NCBI RefSeq assembly: GCF_001644705.1
Contig: NZ_CP015137.1
Span: 2,970,001-3,002,000, forward strand
Direction of reading: 5' to 3'
DNA: 32,000 bases
From: Dickeya solani IPO 2222
GTDB lineage: Bacteria > Pseudomonadota > Gammaproteobacteria > Enterobacterales > Enterobacteriaceae
Within the stretch, counting starts at the first letter, position 1. Every line of letters starts with the position of its first letter. The translations under genes and the position numbers were made by a program. Below, piece by piece: positions 15,781-25,395 of the stretch. The notes under the pieces are model-generated. The model ran no database searches and had not been told where the DNA came from. It saw nothing but the letters and a program-made list of their open reading frames with translations.

Positions 15781-17292
<1,512 letters not shown>

Positions 17293-17319
17293 TTCCACCT
17301 GATTTGCGGGAGCAGAACG

Positions 17320-19251
17320 ATGGACACGTTGAAAATGACCATGGCGCAGGCGCTGGTCCGGTTTCTCAATCAGCAATACCTTGACGTCGACGGCGAGCAA
17401 ACGCCGTTGTTTGCCGGGGTGATGACCATCTTCGGGCACGGCAACGTGCTCGGCATCGGGCAGGCGCTGGAGCAGGATGCCGGGCACCTGCAGGTGCATC
17501 AGGGGTGCAACGAGCAGGGCATGGCGCACATCGCCGTCGGCTTTGCCAAACAGCACCGGCGGCGGCGGGTGTACGCGGTGACCACCTCGGTGGGGCCGGG
17601 CTCCGCCAATCTGGTGACGGCGGCGGCCACCGCCACCGCCAACCGCATTCCGCTGTTGCTGCTGCCGGGGGATCTGTTCGCCAGCCGTCAGCCCGACCCG
17701 GTGTTGCAGCAAATCGAGCAGTATCACGACGCGACCATCAGCACCAACGATTGCCTGCGGCCGGTGTCGCGCTACTGGGACCGCATCAGTCGTCCGGAGC
17801 AACTGATGAGCGCGCTGATCAATGCCATGCGGGTGCTGACCGATCCGGCGGACACCGGCACGGTGACGCTGTGCCTGCCGCAGGACGTGCAGGCGGAAGC
17901 CTGGGATTATCCGGCGGCGTTTTTCCAGCGACGGGTGCATCATCTGGAACGACGTCCGCCGGACGCCGCCCGGCTGGCGCAGGCGGCGGCATTACTGGCG
18001 CGCAAACGCCGTCCGTTGTTGATTTGCGGCGGCGGGGTGCGTTATGCCGGTGCGCACGACGTTTTTCAGCAGTTTGCCGAGCGTTTTAATTTGCCGTTTG
18101 GCGAAACTCAGGCGGGCAAGGGCGCGCTGGTGTCGACGCACCCGCTTAACGCCGGCGGCATTGGCGTCACCGGCGGGCAGGCCGCCAACCGGCTGGCGGC
18201 GCAGGCGGATCTGGTGATTGGCGTCGGCACCCGGCTGACCGACTTCACCACGGCTTCCAAGTCGCTGTTTACCCACCCGCAGGTCGAGTTTTTGCTGCTC
18301 AACGTGGCGGAGTTCGACGCGTTCAAACTGGATGCCACCGCACTGATCGCCGACGCCCGCGAGGGGCTGACGCAACTGGCGCAGATGCTGGACGCCCAGG
18401 GTTATCGCAGCGGCTGGGGGGAAGAAATCGCACAGGCGCGTCTCGACTGGCAACAGGAGCGTCAGCGGCTGTTCGCCCGGCGTGACGAAGACGGACAGGG
18501 GCTGGAAATCGCCGGGCATCTGGACGCGCAACTGGCGGAGTACCGCGAAACGCTTGGCACCCGGCTAACGCAAACCCGCGTGCTGGGGCTGTTGAACGAC
18601 GCGCTGGAAGACGACGCTATCGTGGTGGGCGCGGCCGGGTCGCTACCTGGCGACCTGCAACGGCTGTGGCAGGTGAAAACGCCGGACAGCTACCATCTGG
18701 AGTACGGTTATTCCTGCATGGGGTATGAGATCGCGGCGGCGGTGGGCGCACGGCTGGCGGCGCCGCGACAGCCGGTGTACGCGATGGTGGGCGACGGTTC
18801 CTACCTGATGCTGCACAGCGAGCTGCAAACCGCGGTGCAGGAAGGCATCAAGATAACCGTGCTGCTGTTCGACAACGCCGGGTTTGGCTGCATCAACAAC
18901 TTGCAGATGAGTCAGGGCATGGGCAGCTTCTGCACCGAGAACCGGCGGCGTGATCGGGACAGCGGCACGCTGACTGGCTCGCTGGTGACGGTGGATTTCG
19001 CCCGCAACGCTGAAAGCTACGGCTGCCGGGCGTGGACGGTGCGGGATGAAACGTCGTTGCTGCAGGCGCTGCGTGAGGCGCAGGCGCACCCCGGCCCTTG
19101 TCTGCTGGATATCAAGGTGCTGCCGAAAACCATGACCCACGGCTACGACGCCTGGTGGAATACCGGTACCGCGCAGGTGGCGGACAATCCGGCGATTGAA
19201 GCGGCGGCGCGCCAGGTACAGTTACAGCGCTCGAAAGCGCGGCAGTATTAA
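17320..19251 (+). CDS. iolD: 3D-(3,5/4)-trihydroxycyclohexane-1,2-dione acylhydrolase (643 aa, ThDP-dependent)
   Basis: ThDP-enzyme architecture with the motif [18 protein letters not shown]...[15 protein letters not shown]. Size and iol context fit IolD. Confidence 0.9.
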
Positions 19252-19897: not shown

Positions 19898-19919
19898 ATC
19901 TGATCCTTACCAATATGAT

Positions 19920-19939
19920 GACTGTGTATTTATACACCT
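19920..19939 (-). promoter_or_regulatory. near-consensus LexA box upstream of sbmC (plus strand CTG-N10-CAC)
   Basis: gaCTGtgtatttataCACct has one mismatch in the CAG half and a TA-rich spacer. It lies 23-42 nt upstream of the sbmC ATG and overlaps a TATAAA -10-like element on the minus strand. Confidence 0.45.
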
Positions 19940-20083
19940 TAATATACACCTCAATGTCGCGTGGACACGATGATCGTATTCCGTATGCGAGCGAACTCGC
20001 ATTCTTGTCAGAAGAAGGCGCTGATGTCCTAAACAGGGAAGGCATTGCGGTAAAAACCGGCGGTGTATTTTGCGTCGCGGCTG

Positions 20084-20115
20084 AGGGGGAGGCGATAGCA
20101 TCCCCCTTATTTTTT
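20084..20115 (+). terminator. plus-strand intrinsic terminator (aggggga-ggcgatagca-tccccct followed by TATTTTTT) with no annotated plus-strand gene upstream
   Basis: 7-bp stem and 10-nt loop with a T-run only on the plus strand. An A-run precedes the hairpin on the minus strand, so weak bidirectional function for the islet operon ending at 20139 is possible. Confidence 0.6.
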
Positions 20116-20138
20116 CACAGCCATTCAGCCGCTATGGA

Positions 20139-20810
20139 TTAACGATCGTCGACAATAAAATCCATCGCGATGTGAAAATAGCCATTCATCATTTCAGGAA
20201 CTAATTCAGCCACCGCGCTATCAACGTCCTGACCATAAACCTGTATAGCCCGATCGGTTAATGTCTGTGTGTATACACCGTTTTTAACCTCCGTATGTAA
20301 ATCCCTTCGTGTTTGCAAAAAATCATTCGAGAAGTTAAATCTGGATATAGAGAATTTATCATTTTTTATGATGATAAAATCGATAGGGTTCATGAGGCGG
20401 TCTTTTTTTAGCGTAATTTTGGGGACGTGGGTAGAAAACGCTACGTGATTGTTCTCCGTTACCTCGGCCCATGTTGCATTACACGTATTATTGACTGAGG
20501 GCGTTTTTCCTTGCGCTTTGAATGCATCAGAAAGGCATAGTCCTACTTTTGCGCCGGTCAGCGGCTGCATAGTGTCTTTTTCAAAAAATCGCAAAACGAA
20601 TTTTACAGGGATACGGCCTTTCGAATCTGAAAAACTACACTGACCTCTTTTAAACAGAAATTTATCCAACCTGCCGATAATTTTTTGTTCGTCATTGATG
20701 AGTGCCGTATTTATTATGATCGGTTTTTTCGTCAGGGCGCTGTAAGTTCGGTGTGTGATGCCGTAAAGCCCTAACGCTACCCCGGATATGATGAACATTC
20801 TCCTGTTCAT
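20139..20810 (-). CDS. hypothetical exported protein with a Tat-type (twin-arginine) signal peptide (223 aa)
   Basis: The N-terminus [25 protein letters not shown] has an RR-x-F-I motif, a Gly-rich h-region and a basic c-region. The ATG overlaps the ferredoxin stop (ATGA at 20807-20810), with GAGGAGGA upstream. AT-rich codon usage. No recognisable catalytic motif. Confidence 0.75.
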
Positions 20811-21100
20811 GAGGTCAAATCCTCCTCGGCATGAGACATGATAAACATATCGGATTGTGGATAGGTGACACAGGGGAGTAGATATTTTCCCTGTTGATCT
20901 TCATCGAGGAAGGATTGATCAGAGTCATCATATTTTCCAGTTAACGCTCTGCAGGCACATGAAGAACATGCACCGGCCCGGCAACTGTAGGGTAGTTCTA
21001 AGCCTTCTTCCTCGGCGGCATCTAGTATATATTGATCATCGCTGCATTTTATGGTCTTTGTTTTTCCACAGCTCATGATGTTTATATGATAAATTGGCAT
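20807..21100 (-). CDS. plant-type (chloroplast/cyanobacterial-type) [2Fe-2S] ferredoxin (97 aa)
   Basis: [26 protein letters not shown]...DQSFLDEDQ...LLPCVTYP...HAEEDLT. The ligand pattern C40-x4-C45-x2-C48...C77 is complete. AAGGAGG lies 10 nt upstream, and the ATG overlaps the upstream stop (TAATG). Confidence 0.9.
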
Positions 21101-21351
21101 TATGCGTTCTCCTCCTTTTGAACGTAAACGGTAAATCCTTTGGGTTTTAAATCAGGATGATCAATGGAGATTTCATTTAAAACGTTCATGCACAGGGTAT
21201 AAAGTAGCTCGCCTGCGACACGTTTGCATTGGTTATATTCCTCTTCCGGCAGCTGATTTCCCAGATCGGTCAGTTCTTTTTCAATTAACGTGATGAGTGC
21301 CGATGACTTATTAATGACTTTCCTGGCGACGTCTTTGTCTGAAATGAACAT
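21100..21351 (-). CDS. hypothetical small cytoplasmic protein (83 aa), first gene of the translationally coupled triad
   Basis: Start set at MFISDKD (21351), with GGAG 8 nt upstream. The ORF-track start at 21450 would overlap the upstream gene by 68 nt and has no RBS. No signal peptide and no recognisable domain. Confidence 0.65.
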
Positions 21352-21382
21352 GGTTATTACTCCATAATTTTTTAAGTAGGAA

Positions 21383-21742
21383 TTAAAAATCACACATGGG
21401 GACCATTCCCATACACTCAGCCATACAGCTGTGAAAGGAGCCGCCATCAAACGAGCCAGTTGGTAATGTATATAAGCATTCTTGTATGCATCGGTCTTTC
21501 TTATCTCCCATGCTTGAATTCAGCATGTCGCTGGTTGAATTTGGGATTATGTTATTTTTTTTAATAACGCATACTGCGCTTACTTTGTAAAAATTGGCTG
21601 ATTTTTTTATTTTCTCACGCTCATTTTGGTGTGTCAATTTTGCATTGATATCTCCATCGGCGACACTTGTATTTTGATAAAACAAGCTCATGGTTAATAG
21701 AGTGGAAGTAAATAATACTCTTTTTACAGATAGATTGATCAT
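21383..21742 (-). CDS. hypothetical secreted cysteine-rich mini-protein with a twin CX3C motif (119 aa precursor)
   Basis: Sec-type signal (KR, then VLFTSTLLTMSLF, then SVA/D). The mature ~91 aa carry 6 Cys, including C85-x3-C89, then 16 residues, then C106-x3-C110. AAGGA lies 7 nt upstream. Confidence 0.65.
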   Translation of the reverse strand: MINLSVKRVLFTSTLLTMSLFYQNTSVADGDINAKLTHQNEREKIKKSANFYKVSAVCVIKKNNIIPNSTSDMLNSSMGDKKDRCIQECLYTLPTGSFDGGSFHSCMAECMGMVPMCDF

Positions 21743-21928
21743 CTGTTATTCCTTTAAAGATGTCCTCAGAAGTATGGTTTTTGGGGGTGTTAAATTAAAT
21801 CTATTTTTGTGTGATGTTATTTTTTATTCTGGAAATTAATTGTCGATATTCCTCCATTTTTATGGATATAATGAAAGTGAATGGTTTATGGGCAACTGAA
21901 TGCACCAAATGACTTTAATGCTTTTCTG

Positions 21929-22678
21929 TTATTTCTTCATTAACTCCTGTAACATTTTTTCAGGATTATTCAGGAACGAACGCGTGATTTGGTAATGATC
22001 GGTGTCTTTATAATTTACCTGGGATATGTTATCGCCATCAAATTGATAAATTAACGCATCCGGGTAACCCAAAAGAATCGGGGAATGGGTGGCGATAATA
22101 AACTGCGAATCATCCAGAATAAGATCATGCATTCTGGCGAGCATCGCCAACTGTCTGGCCGGCGACAGCGCGGCTTCCGGTTCGTCGAGCAGATAGAGCC
22201 CTTTACCACTAAAACGGTTCATCATTAATGAGAGAAAAGACTCGCCGTGCGACTGCTCATGTAATGAGTGACCGCCATACGAATTAATCACCGGCGGTCC
22301 GAAGGACGGTTCGGCATCAAGGTGTTCGATTTCGGAGGCCAGGTTAAAAAAGCTCTCGGCACGAAAAAAAAATCCATTACGGGGACGTGGTACGCCTTTG
22401 GCGATTCTCAGGTAATTGGATAGCTCTGAATGCGACGCCCGCGTACTGAAAGTAAAGTTCCGGGTGCCGCCTTCGGGGTTAAATCCCATCGAGACGGCAA
22501 TCGCTTCCAGCAGCGTTGACTTTCCGGTGCCGTTTTCGCCAATAAAGAATGTGACGTTGGGGTGGGGAACAATAAAATCAAACGAACGAATTGCCGGAAT
22601 GGAAAAAGGGTAATGATCGAATGACGCTACTTTATCGCGGTTGAGAGAGATACGGCTGATGTATTGGTTTGAAATCAT
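21929..22678 (-). CDS. stand-alone ABC/SMC-fold AAA ATPase (COG3910-like predicted ATPase, 249 aa)
   Basis: Walker A GENGTGKST, signature-like SHGESF, Walker B LYLLDEPEAALSP and H-loop IIATHSP. No transmembrane or nuclease domain. Confidence 0.85.
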   Translation of the reverse strand: MISNQYISRISLNRDKVASFDHYPFSIPAIRSFDFIVPHPNVTFFIGENGTGKSTLLEAIAVSMGFNPEGGTRNFTFSTRASHSELSNYLRIAKGVPRPRNGFFFRAESFFNLASEIEHLDAEPSFGPPVINSYGGHSLHEQSHGESFLSLMMNRFSGKGLYLLDEPEAALSPARQLAMLARMHDLILDDSQFIIATHSPILLGYPDALIYQFDGDNISQVNYKDTDHYQITRSFLNNPEKMLQELMKK

Positions 22679-22861
22679 TCTGCGTCATTTCCTGCCATGG
22701 ACAGCCCAAAAACACTCACTACCACACCGGGCTAATCATTCCAATAATTTTATTCCCGGCCACGTTATTCCCGATCTCGTGGTTGCCAGTCGCTTACTGA
22801 TGCAATATCCCAGAGATTCACCCGGTTGCGTGAAATTTAGCGAAAATCAGTAACCCTACTG

Positions 22862-22890
22862 ATAGTAATGGTTATCATTATCAAGATCAA
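22862..22890 (-). promoter_or_regulatory. candidate Fur box (22864-22882) overlapping a sigma70-like promoter (TTGATC-17 nt-TACTAT)
   Basis: The minus strand GATAATGATAACCATTACT matches GATAATGATAATCATTATC at 16/19 positions and spans the spacer and -10 of a promoter pointing at the ATPase gene. Confidence 0.5.
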
Positions 22891-23164
22891 CGGCGTTTTT
22901 AGCTGCTGCGACCGCCACGCGGTTCAGCGCCTGATTGAACATCGGTGGTGTCGGCGCTCTTGCTTTTCTGCAATAGAGACAGTGATTGAAATATTTATTT
23001 CATTTTTATTCACCGCGAGGGACGGCGGGACGGTGGTGTCCGCATGCCCTCTGGTCGTTTTATCTGTACGTCAGCTGCAAGACACGACGTCACTCTTCTT
23101 TACTGATTCTATGCCTTGATTACGTTTTTTTTCGTCCTGCAACGCACTGGCAACCCGGCCGCGG

Positions 23165-23186
23165 TTTCGTGATTGTGCTAACACTA
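23165..23186. promoter_or_regulatory. candidate CRP site (CGTGA-N6-TAACA) upstream of iolG
   Basis: 8/10 match to the TGTGA-N6-TCACA core, about 170 bp upstream of the iolG ATG. Confidence 0.25.
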
Positions 23187-23348
23187 TTTTGCTCATATGT
23201 CACCAAAATGTTATCTGGCGCGCAAAAACATAATTTCCAGTTTTACTGAAATTGAAATAAACGTTTTATTGTCTTTACTCTAACAAGCAGAACAGACCCT
23301 GACCCCTACAACTAACCAGTGATACCCCGTGGTATCGAGGGAGTAGCC

Positions 23349-24335
23349 ATGTTTAACATTGCTTTACTGGGCGCTGGCCGCATCGGCCAGGTTCATGCCG
23401 TCAACATCGCCGAACATCGGGAAACCTGTCTTTATTCGGTGGTGGACCCTAACCCCGTCAACGCCCGAGCGCTGTCCGATAAATATCAGGCCCGTCTGCA
23501 AACCCTCGATGAGGCGATGGCCGATCCGGCGGTACACGCGGTACTGATCGCCTCAGCCACCGATACCCACGCCGACCTGATTGAACTGGCTGCCCGCCAC
23601 GGCAAAGCCATCTTCTGCGAAAAACCGGTACACCTGGATATCGCCCGGGTGCGTGACTGCCTGAAGGTGGTGGAACAGCAACAGGTGCCGTTGTTCGTCG
23701 GCTTTAACCGCCGCTACGACCCGCAGTTTCGCCGGGTGAAAACGCTGGCGGGCGAAGGATGCATCGGCAAGCCCGAGTCGCTGATGATTATCTCCCGCGA
23801 CCCGTCGCCGCCGCCGGCGGAGTACGTGCGCGTGTCCGGCGGCATGTTCCGCGACATGACCATCCACGATTTCGACATGGTGCGTTTCATCATGGGCGAA
23901 GAGCCGGTGTCGGTATTCGCGCAGGGCAGTAATCTGGTGGACCCGGCCATCGGCGCGGCTGGCGATATCGATACCGCTTTTGTGGTGTTCAAATTCGCGT
24001 CCGGCGCGATGGCCACCATCGTTAACAGTCGCCGCTCCGGCTACGGCTACGACCAGCGGCTGGAATTACACGGCGAGCGTGGCGTGCTGAGCGTGGGCAA
24101 CATCCGTGAAAATCAGGTGGAACACTGGGGCGACGCGGGGTGCCTCGCGGCCAAACCGGAACACTTTTTCCTACAGCGTTACCGCGATGCCTACGCGGCG
24201 GAATGGCGTCATTTCGTCGAGGTGCTGCACGGGCGTACCCAGCCCGAGTGCAGCGGCGTGGACGGCGAGCGGGCGCTGTATCTGGCCGACAAAGCGCTGG
24301 AGTCGCTGGCGACGGGGCGTGCGGTTTCGCTCTGA
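23349..24335 (+). CDS. iolG: myo-inositol 2-dehydrogenase (IolG/IdhA type, 328 aa)
   Basis: Rossmann motif LLGAGRIGQVHA. Blocks ATDTHADLIE..A..GKAIFCEKP, GFNRRYDP, SRDPSPPP, GGMFRDMTIHDFDM.RF..GEEPVSV and SRR..YGYDQR match rhizobial IdhA from memory. GAGGGAG RBS. The ORF-track start at 23319 was trimmed. Confidence 0.88.
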   Translation: MFNIALLGAGRIGQVHAVNIAEHRETCLYSVVDPNPVNARALSDKYQARLQTLDEAMADPAVHAVLIASATDTHADLIELAARHGKAIFCEKPVHLDIARVRDCLKVVEQQQVPLFVGFNRRYDPQFRRVKTLAGEGCIGKPESLMIISRDPSPPPAEYVRVSGGMFRDMTIHDFDMVRFIMGEEPVSVFAQGSNLVDPAIGAAGDIDTAFVVFKFASGAMATIVNSRRSGYGYDQRLELHGERGVLSVGNIRENQVEHWGDAGCLAAKPEHFFLQRYRDAYAAEWRHFVEVLHGRTQPECSGVDGERALYLADKALESLATGRAVSL

Positions 24336-24378
24336 CATAACCGGGGGCCGGTATTGCCGCGGCCCCTGACATAACGAT

Positions 24379-24423
24379 ATGACCTAAATAACAGCATGAC
24401 CTAAATAACAGCATGACCTGACC
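24379..24423. repeat. 17-bp tandem repeat x2 plus a partial third copy (atgacctaaataacagc)
   Basis: Perfect copies at 24379-24395 and 24396-24412, then atgacctgacc. Located in the iolG / binding-protein intergenic region. Confidence 0.9.
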
Positions 24424-24456
24424 TTTACCTACACCTACTGATGCAGAGACAACACC

Positions 24457-25395
24457 ATGAAAAAGATAACCATCATGGCCGCCGCGATGGCCTTCACGAT
24501 GTCCTCCGGTCTGGCGCAGGCCCAGAACGAACAGATTGTGTTCAGTACGCCTAATCTGGCGATGCCATTCGAAGTCCACATGCAGCGTACCGCGGTCAAG
24601 GCCGCCAAAGAACTGGGCGTTAGCCTGCAGGTGCTGGACAGCCAGGGCAGTTCCCCGAAACAGGTGGCGGATCTGGAAAACGCCATTACGCGCGGCGCGC
24701 AGGGCTTTGTGGTGTCGCCCAACGATGTAAACGCGGTGTCGGGCGCGGTAACGGAAATTCAGGACGCCAAACTGCCGGTGGTCACGCTGGATCGCTCGGT
24801 GAAGACCGACAAGAAAGTGCCGCACTTCGGCGCCAACAACTACAAGGGCGGTCAGGCGATTGCCGATTTCGTCAAAGCACGCTTTCCGAACGGCGCCGAC
24901 ATCGTGCTGCTGACCGGACAGCCGGGGTCGTCATCCAACATTGAACGCACGCAGGGGATCCGCGACAGCCTGAAAGCCGGCGGCAGCAAGTACCGTCTGG
25001 TGGTGGATCAGACCGGCAACTGGATGCGCTCCGAAGGGATGCGCATTGTGGAAAGCGTATTGCCGTCGCTGCCCAAACGTCCGCAGGTGATTCTGTCCGC
25101 CAACGACGACATGGCGCTGGGGGCGATCGAAGCGCTGCAAAGTCAGGGGCTGAAGCCGGGCGAGGTGATGGTGACCGGGTTTGACGCGGTGCCGGAAGCG
25201 CTGGCTCGGGTGCGTGACGGCTGGCTGTCGGTGACCGCCGATCAGCGCCCCGGCTACGCGGTGACGCAGGCGATGACCCAACTGACCAACAATATTCGCA
25301 CCAAGTCGCCGATCACCGGCGCGGATTACCCGCCGACCATGATCACCAAGGACAACCTCAACGACGCGGAACGTATCGGCGAAGCGGGCAAATAA
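24457..25395 (+). CDS. periplasmic sugar-binding protein of an ABC transporter (RbsB/IbpA-like, probable inositol binding; 312 aa)
   Basis: Signal peptide MKKITIMAAAMAFTMSSGLAQA. Type-I periplasmic-binding-protein pattern (VVTLDR, NDDMALGA). iol context. Confidence 0.88.
   Translation: MKKITIMAAAMAFTMSSGLAQAQNEQIVFSTPNLAMPFEVHMQRTAVKAAKELGVSLQVLDSQGSSPKQVADLENAITRGAQGFVVSPNDVNAVSGAVTEIQDAKLPVVTLDRSVKTDKKVPHFGANNYKGGQAIADFVKARFPNGADIVLLTGQPGSSSNIERTQGIRDSLKAGGSKYRLVVDQTGNWMRSEGMRIVESVLPSLPKRPQVILSANDDMALGAIEALQSQGLKPGEVMVTGFDAVPEALARVRDGWLSVTADQRPGYAVTQAMTQLTNNIRTKSPITGADYPPTMITKDNLNDAERIGEAGK

What the first reader, a model, noticed from the sequence alone, without database searches (positions are those of the whole stretch)
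20139..21351. Translationally coupled triad: 83-aa protein, ferredoxin, Tat-signal protein (TAATG and ATGA overlaps)
Seen: the stop of the 83-aa ORF overlaps the ferredoxin ATG (TAATG, 21098-21102), with AAGGAGG 10 nt upstream. The ferredoxin stop overlaps the ATG of the 223-aa ORF (ATGA, 20807-20810), with GAGGAGGA upstream. Established: such overlaps commonly enforce co-synthesis of complex partners. The Tat pathway exports folded, cofactor-loaded proteins and can co-export signal-less partners by hitchhiking, as with hydrogenase subunits and DmsAB. Inference (speculative): the signal-less Fe-S ferredoxin could leave the cytoplasm bound to the RR-signal protein. That would produce a periplasmic or extracellular plant-like ferredoxin complex. 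With pectocins as precedent (ferredoxin fused to a toxin), a non-covalent two-component version is a testable idea, with the 83-aa and/or CX3C proteins acting as chaperone or immunity factors.
Basis: inference. Interest (0 to 1): 0.7.

Follow-up and report, generated by a model that had tools for sequence, protein, structure and literature searches.

The report
Exported-partner cassette around bacterial plant-type ferredoxin
A soft-rot bacterium (Dickeya solani) carries a small foreign gene cassette in which a plant-type iron-sulfur ferredoxin with no export signal sits next to a partner protein with a twin-arginine export signal, so the ferredoxin may be carried out of the cytoplasm piggy-back; this is untested.

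Summary
On the minus strand, the 83-aa ORF, a 97-aa plant-type [2Fe-2S] ferredoxin and a 223-aa ORF are joined by TAATG and ATGA overlaps with good Shine-Dalgarno sites. All four cassette proteins are 100% identical to Dickeya solani proteins.

The triad is part of a four-gene, low-GC cassette; the fourth gene encodes a Sec-signal twin-CX3C protein. The cassette recurs in Dickeya, Pectobacterium (where the ferredoxin matches the stand-alone plant-like ferredoxin known as FerE) and Pseudomonas lijiangensis. The ferredoxin/RR-protein pair alone also recurs in Endozoicomonas and in metagenomes.

The 223-aa protein family always starts with an RR-x-F motif plus a hydrophobic stretch. Its predicted fold is that of an intradiol dioxygenase, but the iron ligands are missing. 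Other cassette partners are also extracytoplasmic: a DsbA-like protein or signal-peptide RHS proteins.

Best reading (about 0.4): Tat "hitchhiker" co-export of a ferredoxin:RR-protein complex. The bacteriocin idea lacks direct support, because no toxin domain was found and the cassette also occurs outside genera known to carry Fus. RHS linkage in two lineages keeps it open.

Caveats: many RefSeq models start the 223-aa gene at Met5, which hides the RR motif. No multimer prediction or experiment was possible.

The parts
21383..21742 (-). 119-aa protein with an N-terminal Sec-type signal peptide (about residues 1-28, ending SVA) and a C-terminal twin CX3C motif (C85-x3-C89 ... C106-x3-C110, plus C117; about 21392-21490). 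It is the first gene of the cassette.
   Evidence: ORF. The four Cys are invariant in Dickeya, Pectobacterium and Pseudomonas homologues and in the C-terminus of the L019 RHS-like protein. No family match. dN/dS is 0.62, the fastest-evolving of the four genes.
21100..21351 (-). 83-aa acidic protein with no signal peptide. It is predicted to form a helical hairpin (helices 5-33 and 36-64) followed by a conserved, low-confidence tail, [13 protein letters not shown].
   Evidence: homologues in Pectobacterium, Pseudomonas and L021. Single-sequence AlphaFold2 gave pLDDT 73.5. Foldseek found nothing significant. No Pfam, NCBIfam or PADLOC hit. dN/dS 0.14.
21098..21102 (-). TAATG stop/start overlap between the 83-aa ORF and the ferredoxin. 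The Shine-Dalgarno site AAGGAGG lies at 21111-21117.
   Evidence: Sequence read.
20807..21100 (-). 97-aa plant-type [2Fe-2S] ferredoxin with no signal peptide. All four cluster cysteines are present (C-x4-C-x2-C ... C), plus an extra Cys giving the signature SC[A/V/L/T]C. It is the Dickeya counterpart of the Pectobacterium stand-alone plant-like ferredoxin (FerE).
   Evidence: PF00111 E=4e-21. TIGR02008 121.6 bits. PDB hits to cyanobacterial and plant ferredoxins at E about 1e-30 and to the pectocin M1 and M2 ferredoxin domains at 2e-25 and 3.5e-22. 100% identical to D. solani and 60-69% to Pectobacterium. Subfamily clade and signature.
20807..20810 (-). ATGA stop/start overlap between the ferredoxin and the 223-aa ORF. 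The Shine-Dalgarno site GAGGAGGA lies at 20820-20827. The overlap is valid only if Met1 is the start.
   Evidence: Alternative Met5 models.
20139..20810 (-). 223-aa protein. Residues 1 to about 25 form a twin-arginine (Tat-type) signal, [25 protein letters not shown] (about 20736-20810). The mature part is basic and predicted to form a beta-sandwich with the intradiol-dioxygenase fold, but without the iron ligands.
   Evidence: RR is invariant and F+2 nearly so in 13 family members. AlphaFold2 gave pLDDT 74.6 and pTM 0.75. The top 50 Foldseek hits are all intradiol dioxygenases, best E=2.5e-7, probability 1.00. No column has at least 75% His, Tyr or Cys. Mature pI is about 9. dN/dS 0.06. The family has only about 7 true clusters among 1.84 billion representatives.
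19900..23300 (.). Low-GC island (about 0.43 GC against about 0.61-0.63 in the flanks). It carries the cassette and an AAA_15/AAA_21 ATPase gene and is inserted in a myo-inositol catabolism locus.
   Evidence: The same site is used in D. fangzhongdai. The cassette has lower GC than the rest of its locus in every lineage examined (margin negligible in L019).

Best explanation
This is a horizontally acquired four-gene cassette built around a plant-type ferredoxin. The ferredoxin is the Dickeya counterpart of Pectobacterium FerE.

Proposed mechanism:
1. The ferredoxin receives its [2Fe-2S] cluster in the cytoplasm.
2. It binds the basic, cofactor-less beta-sandwich protein encoded immediately downstream.
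3. The pair is exported by the Tat system on the partner's twin-arginine signal, as a 'hitchhiker'.
4. Tight or overlapping translation keeps the subunits stoichiometric.
5. The signal-less 83-aa helical protein acts in the cytoplasm as an escort or assembly factor.
6. The Sec-exported twin-CX3C protein, which is disulfide-bonded and in other lineages served by a dedicated DsbA-like protein, meets the complex in the periplasm.
7. The result is an extracytoplasmic plant-type ferredoxin module. It may be secreted further.

The physiological role is probably tied to host-associated stress and fitness, the phenotype reported for FerE.

Shown here: the gene structure, the conservation of the pair and the cassette, the motif, the fold class and the absence of iron ligands.

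Inferred: complex formation, Tat dependence, the role of the 83-aa protein and the final location and function.
For: - The Fd and RR genes are adjacent or in one cassette in Dickeya, Pectobacterium, P. lijiangensis, Endozoicomonas and three metagenomic lineages, despite only 24-48% RR-protein identity.
- Most cassette ferredoxins form their own clade with a shared signature, which implies co-inheritance.
- RR is invariant and F+2 nearly so, followed by an uncharged hydrophobic stretch, in all 13 family members. A weak, non-significant profile match (E 1.5) points to the CueO Tat signal peptide.
- The RR protein has no conserved Cys, His or Tyr, so its use of a folded-protein export route is not explained by a cofactor of its own.
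- Charges are complementary: ferredoxin about -10, mature RR protein about +4, with conserved R47, K50, K135, K152 and R157.
- The remaining cassette partners are extracytoplasmic: the Sec-signal CX3C protein, the DsbA-like protein and the signal-peptide RHS proteins.
- Hitchhiking by untagged subunits is an established Tat mechanism (PMC10924467).
- Purifying selection acts on all three genes.
Against: - There is no direct evidence of a complex or of export. No multimer prediction could be run.
- Tat-signal profile HMMs were not significant.
- Cofactor-less proteins can also use Tat, so the cofactor argument is weak.
- The two most divergent family members, in L018 and L026, have no ferredoxin nearby.
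- The overlap itself is not conserved in Pectobacterium, L021 or Endozoicomonas.
- Many RefSeq models start at Met5, which removes the RR motif.
- The reported FerE phenotype, oxidative-stress tolerance (cited in PMC3486870), fits a cytoplasmic redox role equally well.
- A periplasmic ferredoxin would have no obvious electron source, and in Fus-positive strains it would be exposed to the FusC protease.
Confidence: 0.4

Rival explanations
1. The ferredoxin is a cytoplasmic electron carrier. It stays in the cytoplasm and supports redox or oxidative-stress metabolism, the phenotype reported for FerE. The RR protein is exported alone and is co-transcribed with the ferredoxin only because both belong to the same stress or fitness island.
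For: [quoted passage not shown]
- The ferredoxin keeps all cluster ligands and is very close to working photosynthetic ferredoxins. From my own knowledge of Anabaena ferredoxin, it also keeps the residues equivalent to F65 and E94 that matter for reductase interaction.
- Two RR-family members occur without a ferredoxin.
Against: - It does not explain why this ferredoxin subfamily is found next to an RR-signal protein in four genera and several metagenomes.
- It does not explain why every other cassette partner is extracytoplasmic.
- No reductase or acceptor enzyme is encoded in any version of the cassette.
Confidence: 0.3
2. The cassette is a non-covalent, pectocin-like antagonism module. The exported ferredoxin serves as the receptor-binding key for a Fus-type ferredoxin importer on competing cells. 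It carries in a cargo: the RR protein, the twin-CX3C peptide, or an RHS toxin in other lineages.
For: - The ferredoxin domain is homologous to those of pectocins M1 and M2.
- Pectocin M1 is thought to derive from a duplicated stand-alone ferredoxin locus (PMC3302902).
- Signal-peptide RHS proteins with immunity-like downstream genes follow the Fd-RR pair in Endozoicomonas and in L019. In L019 the RHS-like C-terminus carries the twin-CX3C motif.
- The CX3C gene evolves fast, dN/dS 0.62.
- Dedicated DsbA-like genes occur in L017 and L021.
Against: - No toxin or immunity family matches any of the window's proteins.
- The RR protein has a dioxygenase-like fold and is under strong purifying selection, dN/dS 0.06, which is unlike polymorphic toxins.
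- The cassette occurs in genera where Fus systems are not reported.
- There is no lysis or release gene.
- The L019 RHS match is below the Pfam threshold.
Confidence: 0.12
3. The RR protein is a periplasmic or secreted ferredoxin-binding protein that handles imported host ferredoxin, as an accessory to iron piracy. The bacterial ferredoxin acts as a cognate placeholder or regulator rather than as cargo.
For: - All named hosts live with photosynthetic partners: plants, or corals with algal symbionts.
- The RR protein has a conserved basic surface that suits acidic ferredoxins.
- Dickeya and Pectobacterium import plant ferredoxin through Fus (PMC5095587).
Against: - The cassette is not linked to fus genes in any locus examined.
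- There is no explanation for why a ferredoxin gene would have to be co-inherited.
- The idea is purely inferential.
Confidence: 0.08
4. There is no functional partnership. The genes are unrelated small ORFs that happen to sit together on a mobile island, and the overlaps are ordinary operon packing.
For: - Start/stop overlaps are common.
- Promoter and terminator scans were at chance level.
- The family is tiny and patchy.
Against: The same gene set recurs in four genera, at different chromosomal sites and in different gene orders, under purifying selection.
Confidence: 0.05

Closest known systems
FerE, the stand-alone plant ferredoxin-like protein of Pectobacterium (Sjoblom et al. 2008; the 'plant-like ferredoxin' of Pcc PC1 in Grinter et al. 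2012)
   Same: - It is a stand-alone plant-type [2Fe-2S] ferredoxin in a soft-rot enterobacterium.
- It is 60-69% identical to the Pectobacterium ferredoxins examined here, and the same neighbouring genes are present.
- It lies on a small, low-GC, horizontally acquired island (GI_55 in PMC3486870).
   Different: - The host is Dickeya and the chromosomal site differs: the iol locus rather than beside the pel genes.
- The gene order differs, and the stop/start overlaps are specific to Dickeya.
- The papers I could read describe only the ferredoxin and 'a hypothetical ORF'. They do not mention the RR-signal partner or the four-gene cassette.
- I could not compare with the SCC3193 FerE sequence itself.
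Tat 'hitchhiker' heterodimers (HybO/HybC hydrogenase-2, DmsAB, formate dehydrogenases)
   Same: Only one partner carries a twin-arginine signal. The untagged partner carries a metal cofactor assembled in the cytoplasm. The genes are adjacent (for the principle).
   Different: - In the known cases the signal-bearing subunit usually carries a cofactor itself, and the complex is a respiratory enzyme.
- Here the tagged subunit appears to have no cofactor, and the passenger is a small soluble plant-type ferredoxin.
- No dedicated known chaperone family (NapD or TorD type) is present.
- Export is unproven.
Pectocins M1, M2 and P (ferredoxin-containing bacteriocins) and the Fus ferredoxin uptake system
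   Same: The plant-type ferredoxin module occurs in the same bacterial family, with homology at E 2e-25 to the pectocin M1 ferredoxin domain. An evolutionary link between stand-alone ferredoxin loci and pectocin M1 has been proposed.
   Different: - The ferredoxin is not fused to any cytotoxic domain.
- The downstream protein is neither colicin-M-like nor pesticin-like.
- Pectocins have no signal peptides, whereas here the partner has a Tat-type signal.
Secreted intradiol ring-cleavage dioxygenases (for example SACTE_2871 of Streptomyces and the Tetranychus urticae enzymes)
   Same: The predicted beta-sandwich fold matches (Foldseek probability 1.00, TM about 0.5). Like these secreted enzymes, the 223-aa protein carries an N-terminal export signal.
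   Different: - Sequence similarity is not significant (E 0.64), and there is no PF00775 hit.
- The 2-His/2-Tyr Fe(III) ligands are not conserved.
- It is most likely a non-catalytic derivative of that fold.

Membership tests
Plant-type [2Fe-2S] ferredoxin (TIGR02008 / PF00111) | Profile score above the curated cutoff | tested here: met
   TIGR02008 scores 121.6 bits against a cutoff of 81.15. PF00111 scores 75.2 bits against 21.
Plant-type [2Fe-2S] ferredoxin (TIGR02008 / PF00111) | Four cluster-ligand cysteines, C-x4-C-x2-C ... C | tested here: met
   [10 protein letters not shown] ... PC is present in the window's ferredoxin and in all cassette ferredoxins.
Plant-type [2Fe-2S] ferredoxin (TIGR02008 / PF00111) | Binds a [2Fe-2S] cluster and transfers electrons | not testable with these tools
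   Needs spectroscopy of the purified protein.
FerE orthologue (Pectobacterium plant ferredoxin-like protein) | Closest relatives are Pectobacterium stand-alone ferredoxins, with shared neighbouring genes | tested here: met
   60-69% identity to ferredoxins of P. parvum, P. brasiliense, P. versatile and P. actinidiae. The 83-aa, CX3C and RR genes are shared.
FerE orthologue (Pectobacterium plant ferredoxin-like protein) | Direct match to FerE of strain SCC3193 (W5S_4691), plus quorum-sensing control and the oxidative-stress phenotype | not tested
   The SCC3193 sequence and the 2008 paper were not available. The phenotype needs experiments.
Twin-arginine (Tat) signal peptide | Consensus motif S/T-R-R-x-F-L-K near the N-terminus, followed by a moderately hydrophobic uncharged stretch | tested here: met
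   The window has N-R-R-M-F-I-I plus 16 uncharged residues, and Pectobacterium has S-R-R-x-F-I-L. RR is invariant and F is present in 12 of 13 members.
Twin-arginine (Tat) signal peptide | Significant match to Tat-signal profile models (PF10518, TIGR01409) | tested here: not met
   PF10518 matched only 2 of 13 members, best E 0.12. There was no TIGR01409 hit. These are short models with low power.
Twin-arginine (Tat) signal peptide | Export depends on TatABC and on the RR pair | not testable with these tools
   Needs a tatC mutant and an RR-to-KK mutant.
Tat hitchhiker heterodimer | Signal on one partner only, cofactor-bearing untagged partner, conserved genetic linkage | tested here: met
   The ferredoxin has no signal peptide. 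Linkage holds in 7 of 9 contexts.
Tat hitchhiker heterodimer | Stable physical complex formed before export | not testable with these tools
   No multimer prediction was available. Only charge complementarity could be shown.
Intradiol ring-cleavage dioxygenase (PF00775) | Characteristic beta-sandwich fold | tested here: met
   The top 50 Foldseek hits are all from this family, best E=2.5e-7. The model has pLDDT 74.6.
Intradiol ring-cleavage dioxygenase (PF00775) | Fe(III) ligands (two Tyr and two His) and a significant sequence-profile match | tested here: not met
   No conserved His or Tyr column. No Pfam hit at E up to 10. The PDB profile hit has E 0.64.
Pectocin-type ferredoxin bacteriocin | Ferredoxin domain covalently fused to a colicin-M-like or pesticin-like cytotoxic domain | tested here: not met
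   The ferredoxin ends at a stop codon. The downstream ORF has its own start and signal in every lineage and no toxin-family match.
Pectocin-type ferredoxin bacteriocin | Killing of related strains through FusA | not testable with these tools
   Needs bioassays.
Tat proofreading chaperones (NapD, TorD/DmsD) as the identity of the 83-aa protein | Sequence or fold match to those families | tested here: not met
   No Pfam or NCBIfam hit. The helical-hairpin model gave no significant Foldseek match. An analogous function is not excluded.

The most novel reading that the evidence does not exclude
Soft-rot and other host-associated bacteria export their own plant-type ferredoxin through Tat hitchhiking, possibly followed by type II secretion. 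The ferredoxin acts as the detachable receptor-binding 'key' of a modular, non-covalent toxin or cargo delivery system. Its cargoes range from the dioxygenase-fold partner and a disulfide-rich twin-CX3C peptide to RHS toxins. This would be a free-standing precursor or analogue of the pectocins that exploits ferredoxin importers on competitors.
Probability: 0.1. Interest if true: 0.85.

Novelty: new variant of a known kind. Interest (0 to 1): 0.6.

Why it matters
Plant-type ferredoxin is central to soft-rot biology. It is pirated for iron through the Fus system and copied into the pectocin bacteriocins. The bacterial stand-alone copy, FerE, is listed as a fitness factor without a known mechanism.

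A Tat-signal partner and two further conserved small proteins always travel with this ferredoxin. This gives a concrete, testable model for where the ferredoxin acts: outside the cytoplasm.

If confirmed, it would be an unusual Tat hitchhiker, with a cofactor-less carrier and a small Fe-S passenger, and the first periplasmic or secreted plant-type ferredoxin in a heterotroph. It could also explain how ferredoxin-based bacteriocins arose.

There is a practical annotation point too. Many RefSeq models start the partner gene at Met5 and so hide its twin-arginine motif.

Tried and rejected
Searches that found nothing useful:
- Pfam, NCBIfam and PADLOC scans of the 223-aa, 83-aa and 119-aa proteins found no family.
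- Tat-signal profile HMMs run across the family were not significant.
- Foldseek with the 83-aa model returned only generic helical hits at E of 4 or more.
- The promoter and terminator scan was at chance level.
- The repeat search around the island in the window found no flanking repeats.
- tblastn of the RR protein against the plasmid and phage collections found no match.

Searches that were limited or failed:
- The genome-contig scan with the Dickeya and Pectobacterium alignment returned only P. colocasium.
- The Sjoblom 2008 paper is not held in the library. Its content is cited second-hand and from memory.

Ideas considered and rejected:
- A catalytic intradiol dioxygenase. The iron ligands are absent.
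- A frameshifted or split ferredoxin-toxin fusion (a pseudo-pectocin). Both ORFs are intact, under purifying selection and separately initiated in every lineage.
- A lipoprotein signal on the RR protein. There is no lipobox.
- A link between the cassette and the neighbouring AAA ATPase. The ATPase is absent from the Pectobacterium and Pseudomonas versions.
Full report
**1. The observation**

On the minus strand the window carries four consecutive small ORFs:
- a 119-aa ORF at 21742-21383
- an 83-aa ORF at 21351-21100
- a 97-aa ORF at 21100-20807
- a 223-aa ORF at 20810-20139

TAATG lies at 21102-21098, with AAGGAGG 10 nt upstream. ATGA lies at 20810-20807, with GAGGAGGA 9 nt upstream.

The 97-aa product is a plant-type [2Fe-2S] ferredoxin:
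- PF00111 matches at E=4e-21.
- TIGR02008 scores 121.6 bits against a cutoff of 81.15.
- The best PDB matches are cyanobacterial and plant ferredoxins at E about 1e-30.
- The ferredoxin domains of pectocins M1 and M2 match at 2e-25 and 3.5e-22.

All four proteins are 100% identical to Dickeya solani proteins. Three are annotated only as 'hypothetical protein'.

Overlaps of 1 and 4 nt are ordinary in operons, so the junctions alone are not remarkable. What counts is what the comparative data add.

**2. A caveat on the gene model**

Many database models of the 223-aa gene are 219 or 221 aa long. They start at Met5 (MFIISG...), which removes 'MNRR' and abolishes the ATGA overlap.

I favour Met1 for two reasons:
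- Its Shine-Dalgarno site is well spaced, whereas the AGGAG before Met5 abuts the ATG.
- The RR pair is invariant in every relative, including Pectobacterium proteins that have no nearby internal Met.

**3. The genes are real and foreign**

Against D. fangzhongdai, dN/dS values are:

| Gene | dN/dS |
|---|---|
| 223-aa (RR protein) | 0.06 |
| ferredoxin | 0.14 |
| 83-aa | 0.14 |
| 119-aa (CX3C) | 0.62 |

The cassette lies in a low-GC island, about 19.9-23.3 kb, with GC 0.43 against about 0.61-0.63 in the flanks. The island sits inside a myo-inositol catabolism locus. The cassette has lower GC than the rest of its locus in every lineage examined, though in L019 the difference is negligible.

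**4. The triad is part of a conserved four-gene cassette**

| Lineage | Site | Gene content and order |
|---|---|---|
| D. fangzhongdai | same site as window | same four genes, same overlaps |
| Pectobacterium (P. parvum, brasiliense, actinidiae, colocasium) | beside pectate lyase genes | 83-aa, CX3C, Fd, RR protein; Fd-RR gap 3-12 nt |
| Pseudomonas lijiangensis and related metagenomic contigs | between two copies of a 300-nt direct repeat | RR protein, CX3C, 83-like, Fd, DsbA-like thioredoxin-fold protein |
| Metagenomic contig L021 | unknown | 83-like (overlapping Fd by 4 nt), Fd, RR protein, DsbA-like protein |
| Contig L019 | unknown | Fd (1-nt overlap), RR protein, signal-peptide RHS-like protein, DUF1835 protein |
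| Endozoicomonas genome CP103300 | unknown | Fd, RR protein, signal-peptide RHS protein (RHS_repeat E=6e-21), small membrane protein |

The C-terminus of the L019 RHS-like protein carries the same twin-CX3C pattern as the 119-aa protein.

An exhaustive HMMER search of 1.84 billion representative proteins found only about seven true clusters of the RR-protein family. The family is therefore rare, and I examined a context for each cluster. The two most divergent members, in L018 and L026, have no ferredoxin nearby.

Most cassette ferredoxins form their own clade. They share the signature SC[A/V/L/T]C, an extra cysteine two residues after the third cluster ligand.

**5. What the proteins look like**

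*The 223-aa (RR) protein*
- Every family member begins with RR-x-F plus an uncharged hydrophobic stretch. Examples are MNRRMFII in the window, M(I/V)SRRxFIL in Pectobacterium and MKRRDFL elsewhere.
- A family profile picks up the CueO Tat signal peptide as a weak, non-significant hit (E 1.5).
- Dedicated Tat-signal HMMs were not significant.
- An AlphaFold2 model built from ten family members (pLDDT 74.6, pTM 0.75) matches only intradiol ring-cleavage dioxygenases among the top 50 Foldseek hits. The best E is 2.5e-7 at probability 1.00, and the hits include the secreted enzymes 5vg2 and 4ilv.
- The family has no column with at least 75% His, Tyr or Cys, and no Pfam match. The Fe(III) ligands that define those enzymes are therefore absent. 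It has the fold but is not a member of the enzyme family.
- The mature protein is basic (pI about 9), with conserved R47, K50, K135, K152 and R157. The ferredoxin carries about -10 net charge.

*The 83-aa protein*
- It has no signal peptide.
- It is predicted to form a helical hairpin with a conserved, low-confidence tail.
- It has no structural or family match.

*The 119-aa protein*
- It has a Sec-type signal peptide and four invariant cysteines in two CX3C motifs.

**6. Mechanism**

The pattern across the cassette is as follows:
- a cluster-bearing ferredoxin with no signal
- a cofactor-less partner with a twin-arginine signal
- conserved linkage of the two genes, often translationally coupled
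- all other cassette products targeted outside the cytoplasm

This is best explained by Tat 'hitchhiker' co-export of a ferredoxin:RR-protein complex. That mechanism is established for hydrogenases and formate dehydrogenases (PMC10924467). In this model the 83-aa protein would act in the cytoplasm as an escort, and the CX3C protein would join the complex in the periplasm.

I put this at about 0.4. Nothing here shows a physical complex or export. Cofactor-less Tat substrates exist, two relatives lack a ferredoxin, and a periplasmic ferredoxin has no obvious electron donor.

The main rival, at about 0.3, is that the ferredoxin stays cytoplasmic as a redox carrier. This fits the reported FerE phenotype of oxidative-stress tolerance and fitness in planta (PMC3486870).

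**7. The bacteriocin idea**

- No toxin or immunity family matches any of the window's proteins.
- The RR protein is strongly conserved rather than polymorphic.
- The cassette occurs in Pseudomonas and Endozoicomonas, whereas Fus systems are reported mainly in Pectobacterium and Dickeya (PMC13253070).

It is not dead, however:
- Signal-peptide RHS proteins follow the Fd-RR pair in two independent lineages.
- The twin-CX3C motif occupies the C-terminal position of one of them.
- The CX3C gene evolves fast.
- Pectocin M1 has been proposed to derive from a duplicated stand-alone ferredoxin locus (PMC3302902).

I give it about 0.1.

**8. Comparison with what is known, and novelty**

The ferredoxin itself is not new. 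Stand-alone plant-like ferredoxins of Pectobacterium (FerE) have been described as horizontally acquired, quorum-sensing-controlled fitness factors (details of the 2008 paper are from my own memory).

In the literature I could search, three things appear undescribed:
- the conserved Tat-signal partner
- the four-gene cassette and its spread beyond Pectobacteriaceae
- the links to DsbA-like and RHS genes

I rate this as a new variant of known kinds (Tat hitchhiker complexes and ferredoxin-based systems of soft-rot bacteria), with moderate to high interest.

Noticed in passing
window 20798-20810 (Met1 versus Met5 of the 223-aa gene): Many RefSeq and GenBank models of this gene in D. solani and D. 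fangzhongdai (219 or 221 aa) start at Met5. This cuts off 'MNRR', so the twin-arginine motif is invisible in those annotations.
   Followed up: yes
window 21929-22678 (minus strand): A 249-aa ABC/AAA_15/AAA_21-type ATPase with generic PtuA, AriA and mad3-like matches lies in the same low-GC island, just upstream of the cassette. It is split by a frameshift into 129-aa and 120-aa ORFs in some D. fangzhongdai strains (L001, L005). It is absent from the Pectobacterium and Pseudomonas cassettes.
   Followed up: partly
L019 1694-4586; L022 5734-8373; L023 1355-3994: Signal-peptide RHS/YD-repeat proteins lie immediately downstream of the Fd-RR pair. In L019 the C-terminus carries the twin-CX3C motif and is followed by a DUF1835 protein. 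In Endozoicomonas the C-terminus has an H...NC motif that I read by eye (not tested with any tool) as an NlpC/LRAT-like domain, and it is followed by a 105-aa membrane protein.
   Followed up: partly
L016 3549-3848 and 7412-7711: In Pseudomonas lijiangensis a 3.9-kb segment carrying the cassette is bracketed by a 300-nt direct repeat at 99% identity. The repeat duplicates the 5' part of a lipoprotein gene, which suggests an insertion or recombination scar.
   Followed up: partly
L017 2479-3135; L021 1175-1807; L025 1976-2185: In the Pseudomonas-type and L021 cassettes a DsbA-like thioredoxin-fold protein follows the cassette. It has a signal peptide and a CxxC motif, which suggests dedicated disulfide formation, for example for the twin-CX3C protein.
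   Followed up: partly
window 20950-20960 (ferredoxin residues 48-50); all cassette ferredoxins: The ferredoxin subfamily has an extra cysteine two residues after the third cluster ligand, giving SCAC, SCVC or SCLC instead of the canonical SCAGK. The Endozoicomonas copy lacks it. Its significance is unknown.
   Followed up: no
window 19934-20082 versus L002 (D. fangzhongdai): D. fangzhongdai has an extra 2.8 kb between the RR gene and the GyrI-like gene, encoding a PAS-domain chemoreceptor and a NUDIX hydrolase. This segment is missing from the window.
   Followed up: partly
window 21392-21416 (minus strand): A terminator-like hairpin followed by a T-run lies at the 3' end of the CX3C gene, just before the 83-aa gene. 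It could set different expression levels for the CX3C gene and the triad. The scan overall was at chance level.
   Followed up: no
window 15781-19251 and 23319-25395: The island interrupts a myo-inositol utilisation locus. On one side lie an aldehyde dehydrogenase (mmsA/iolA-like) and a TPP enzyme (iolD-like). On the other lie a GFO/IDH/MocA dehydrogenase (iolG-like) and a periplasmic sugar-binding protein.
   Followed up: no
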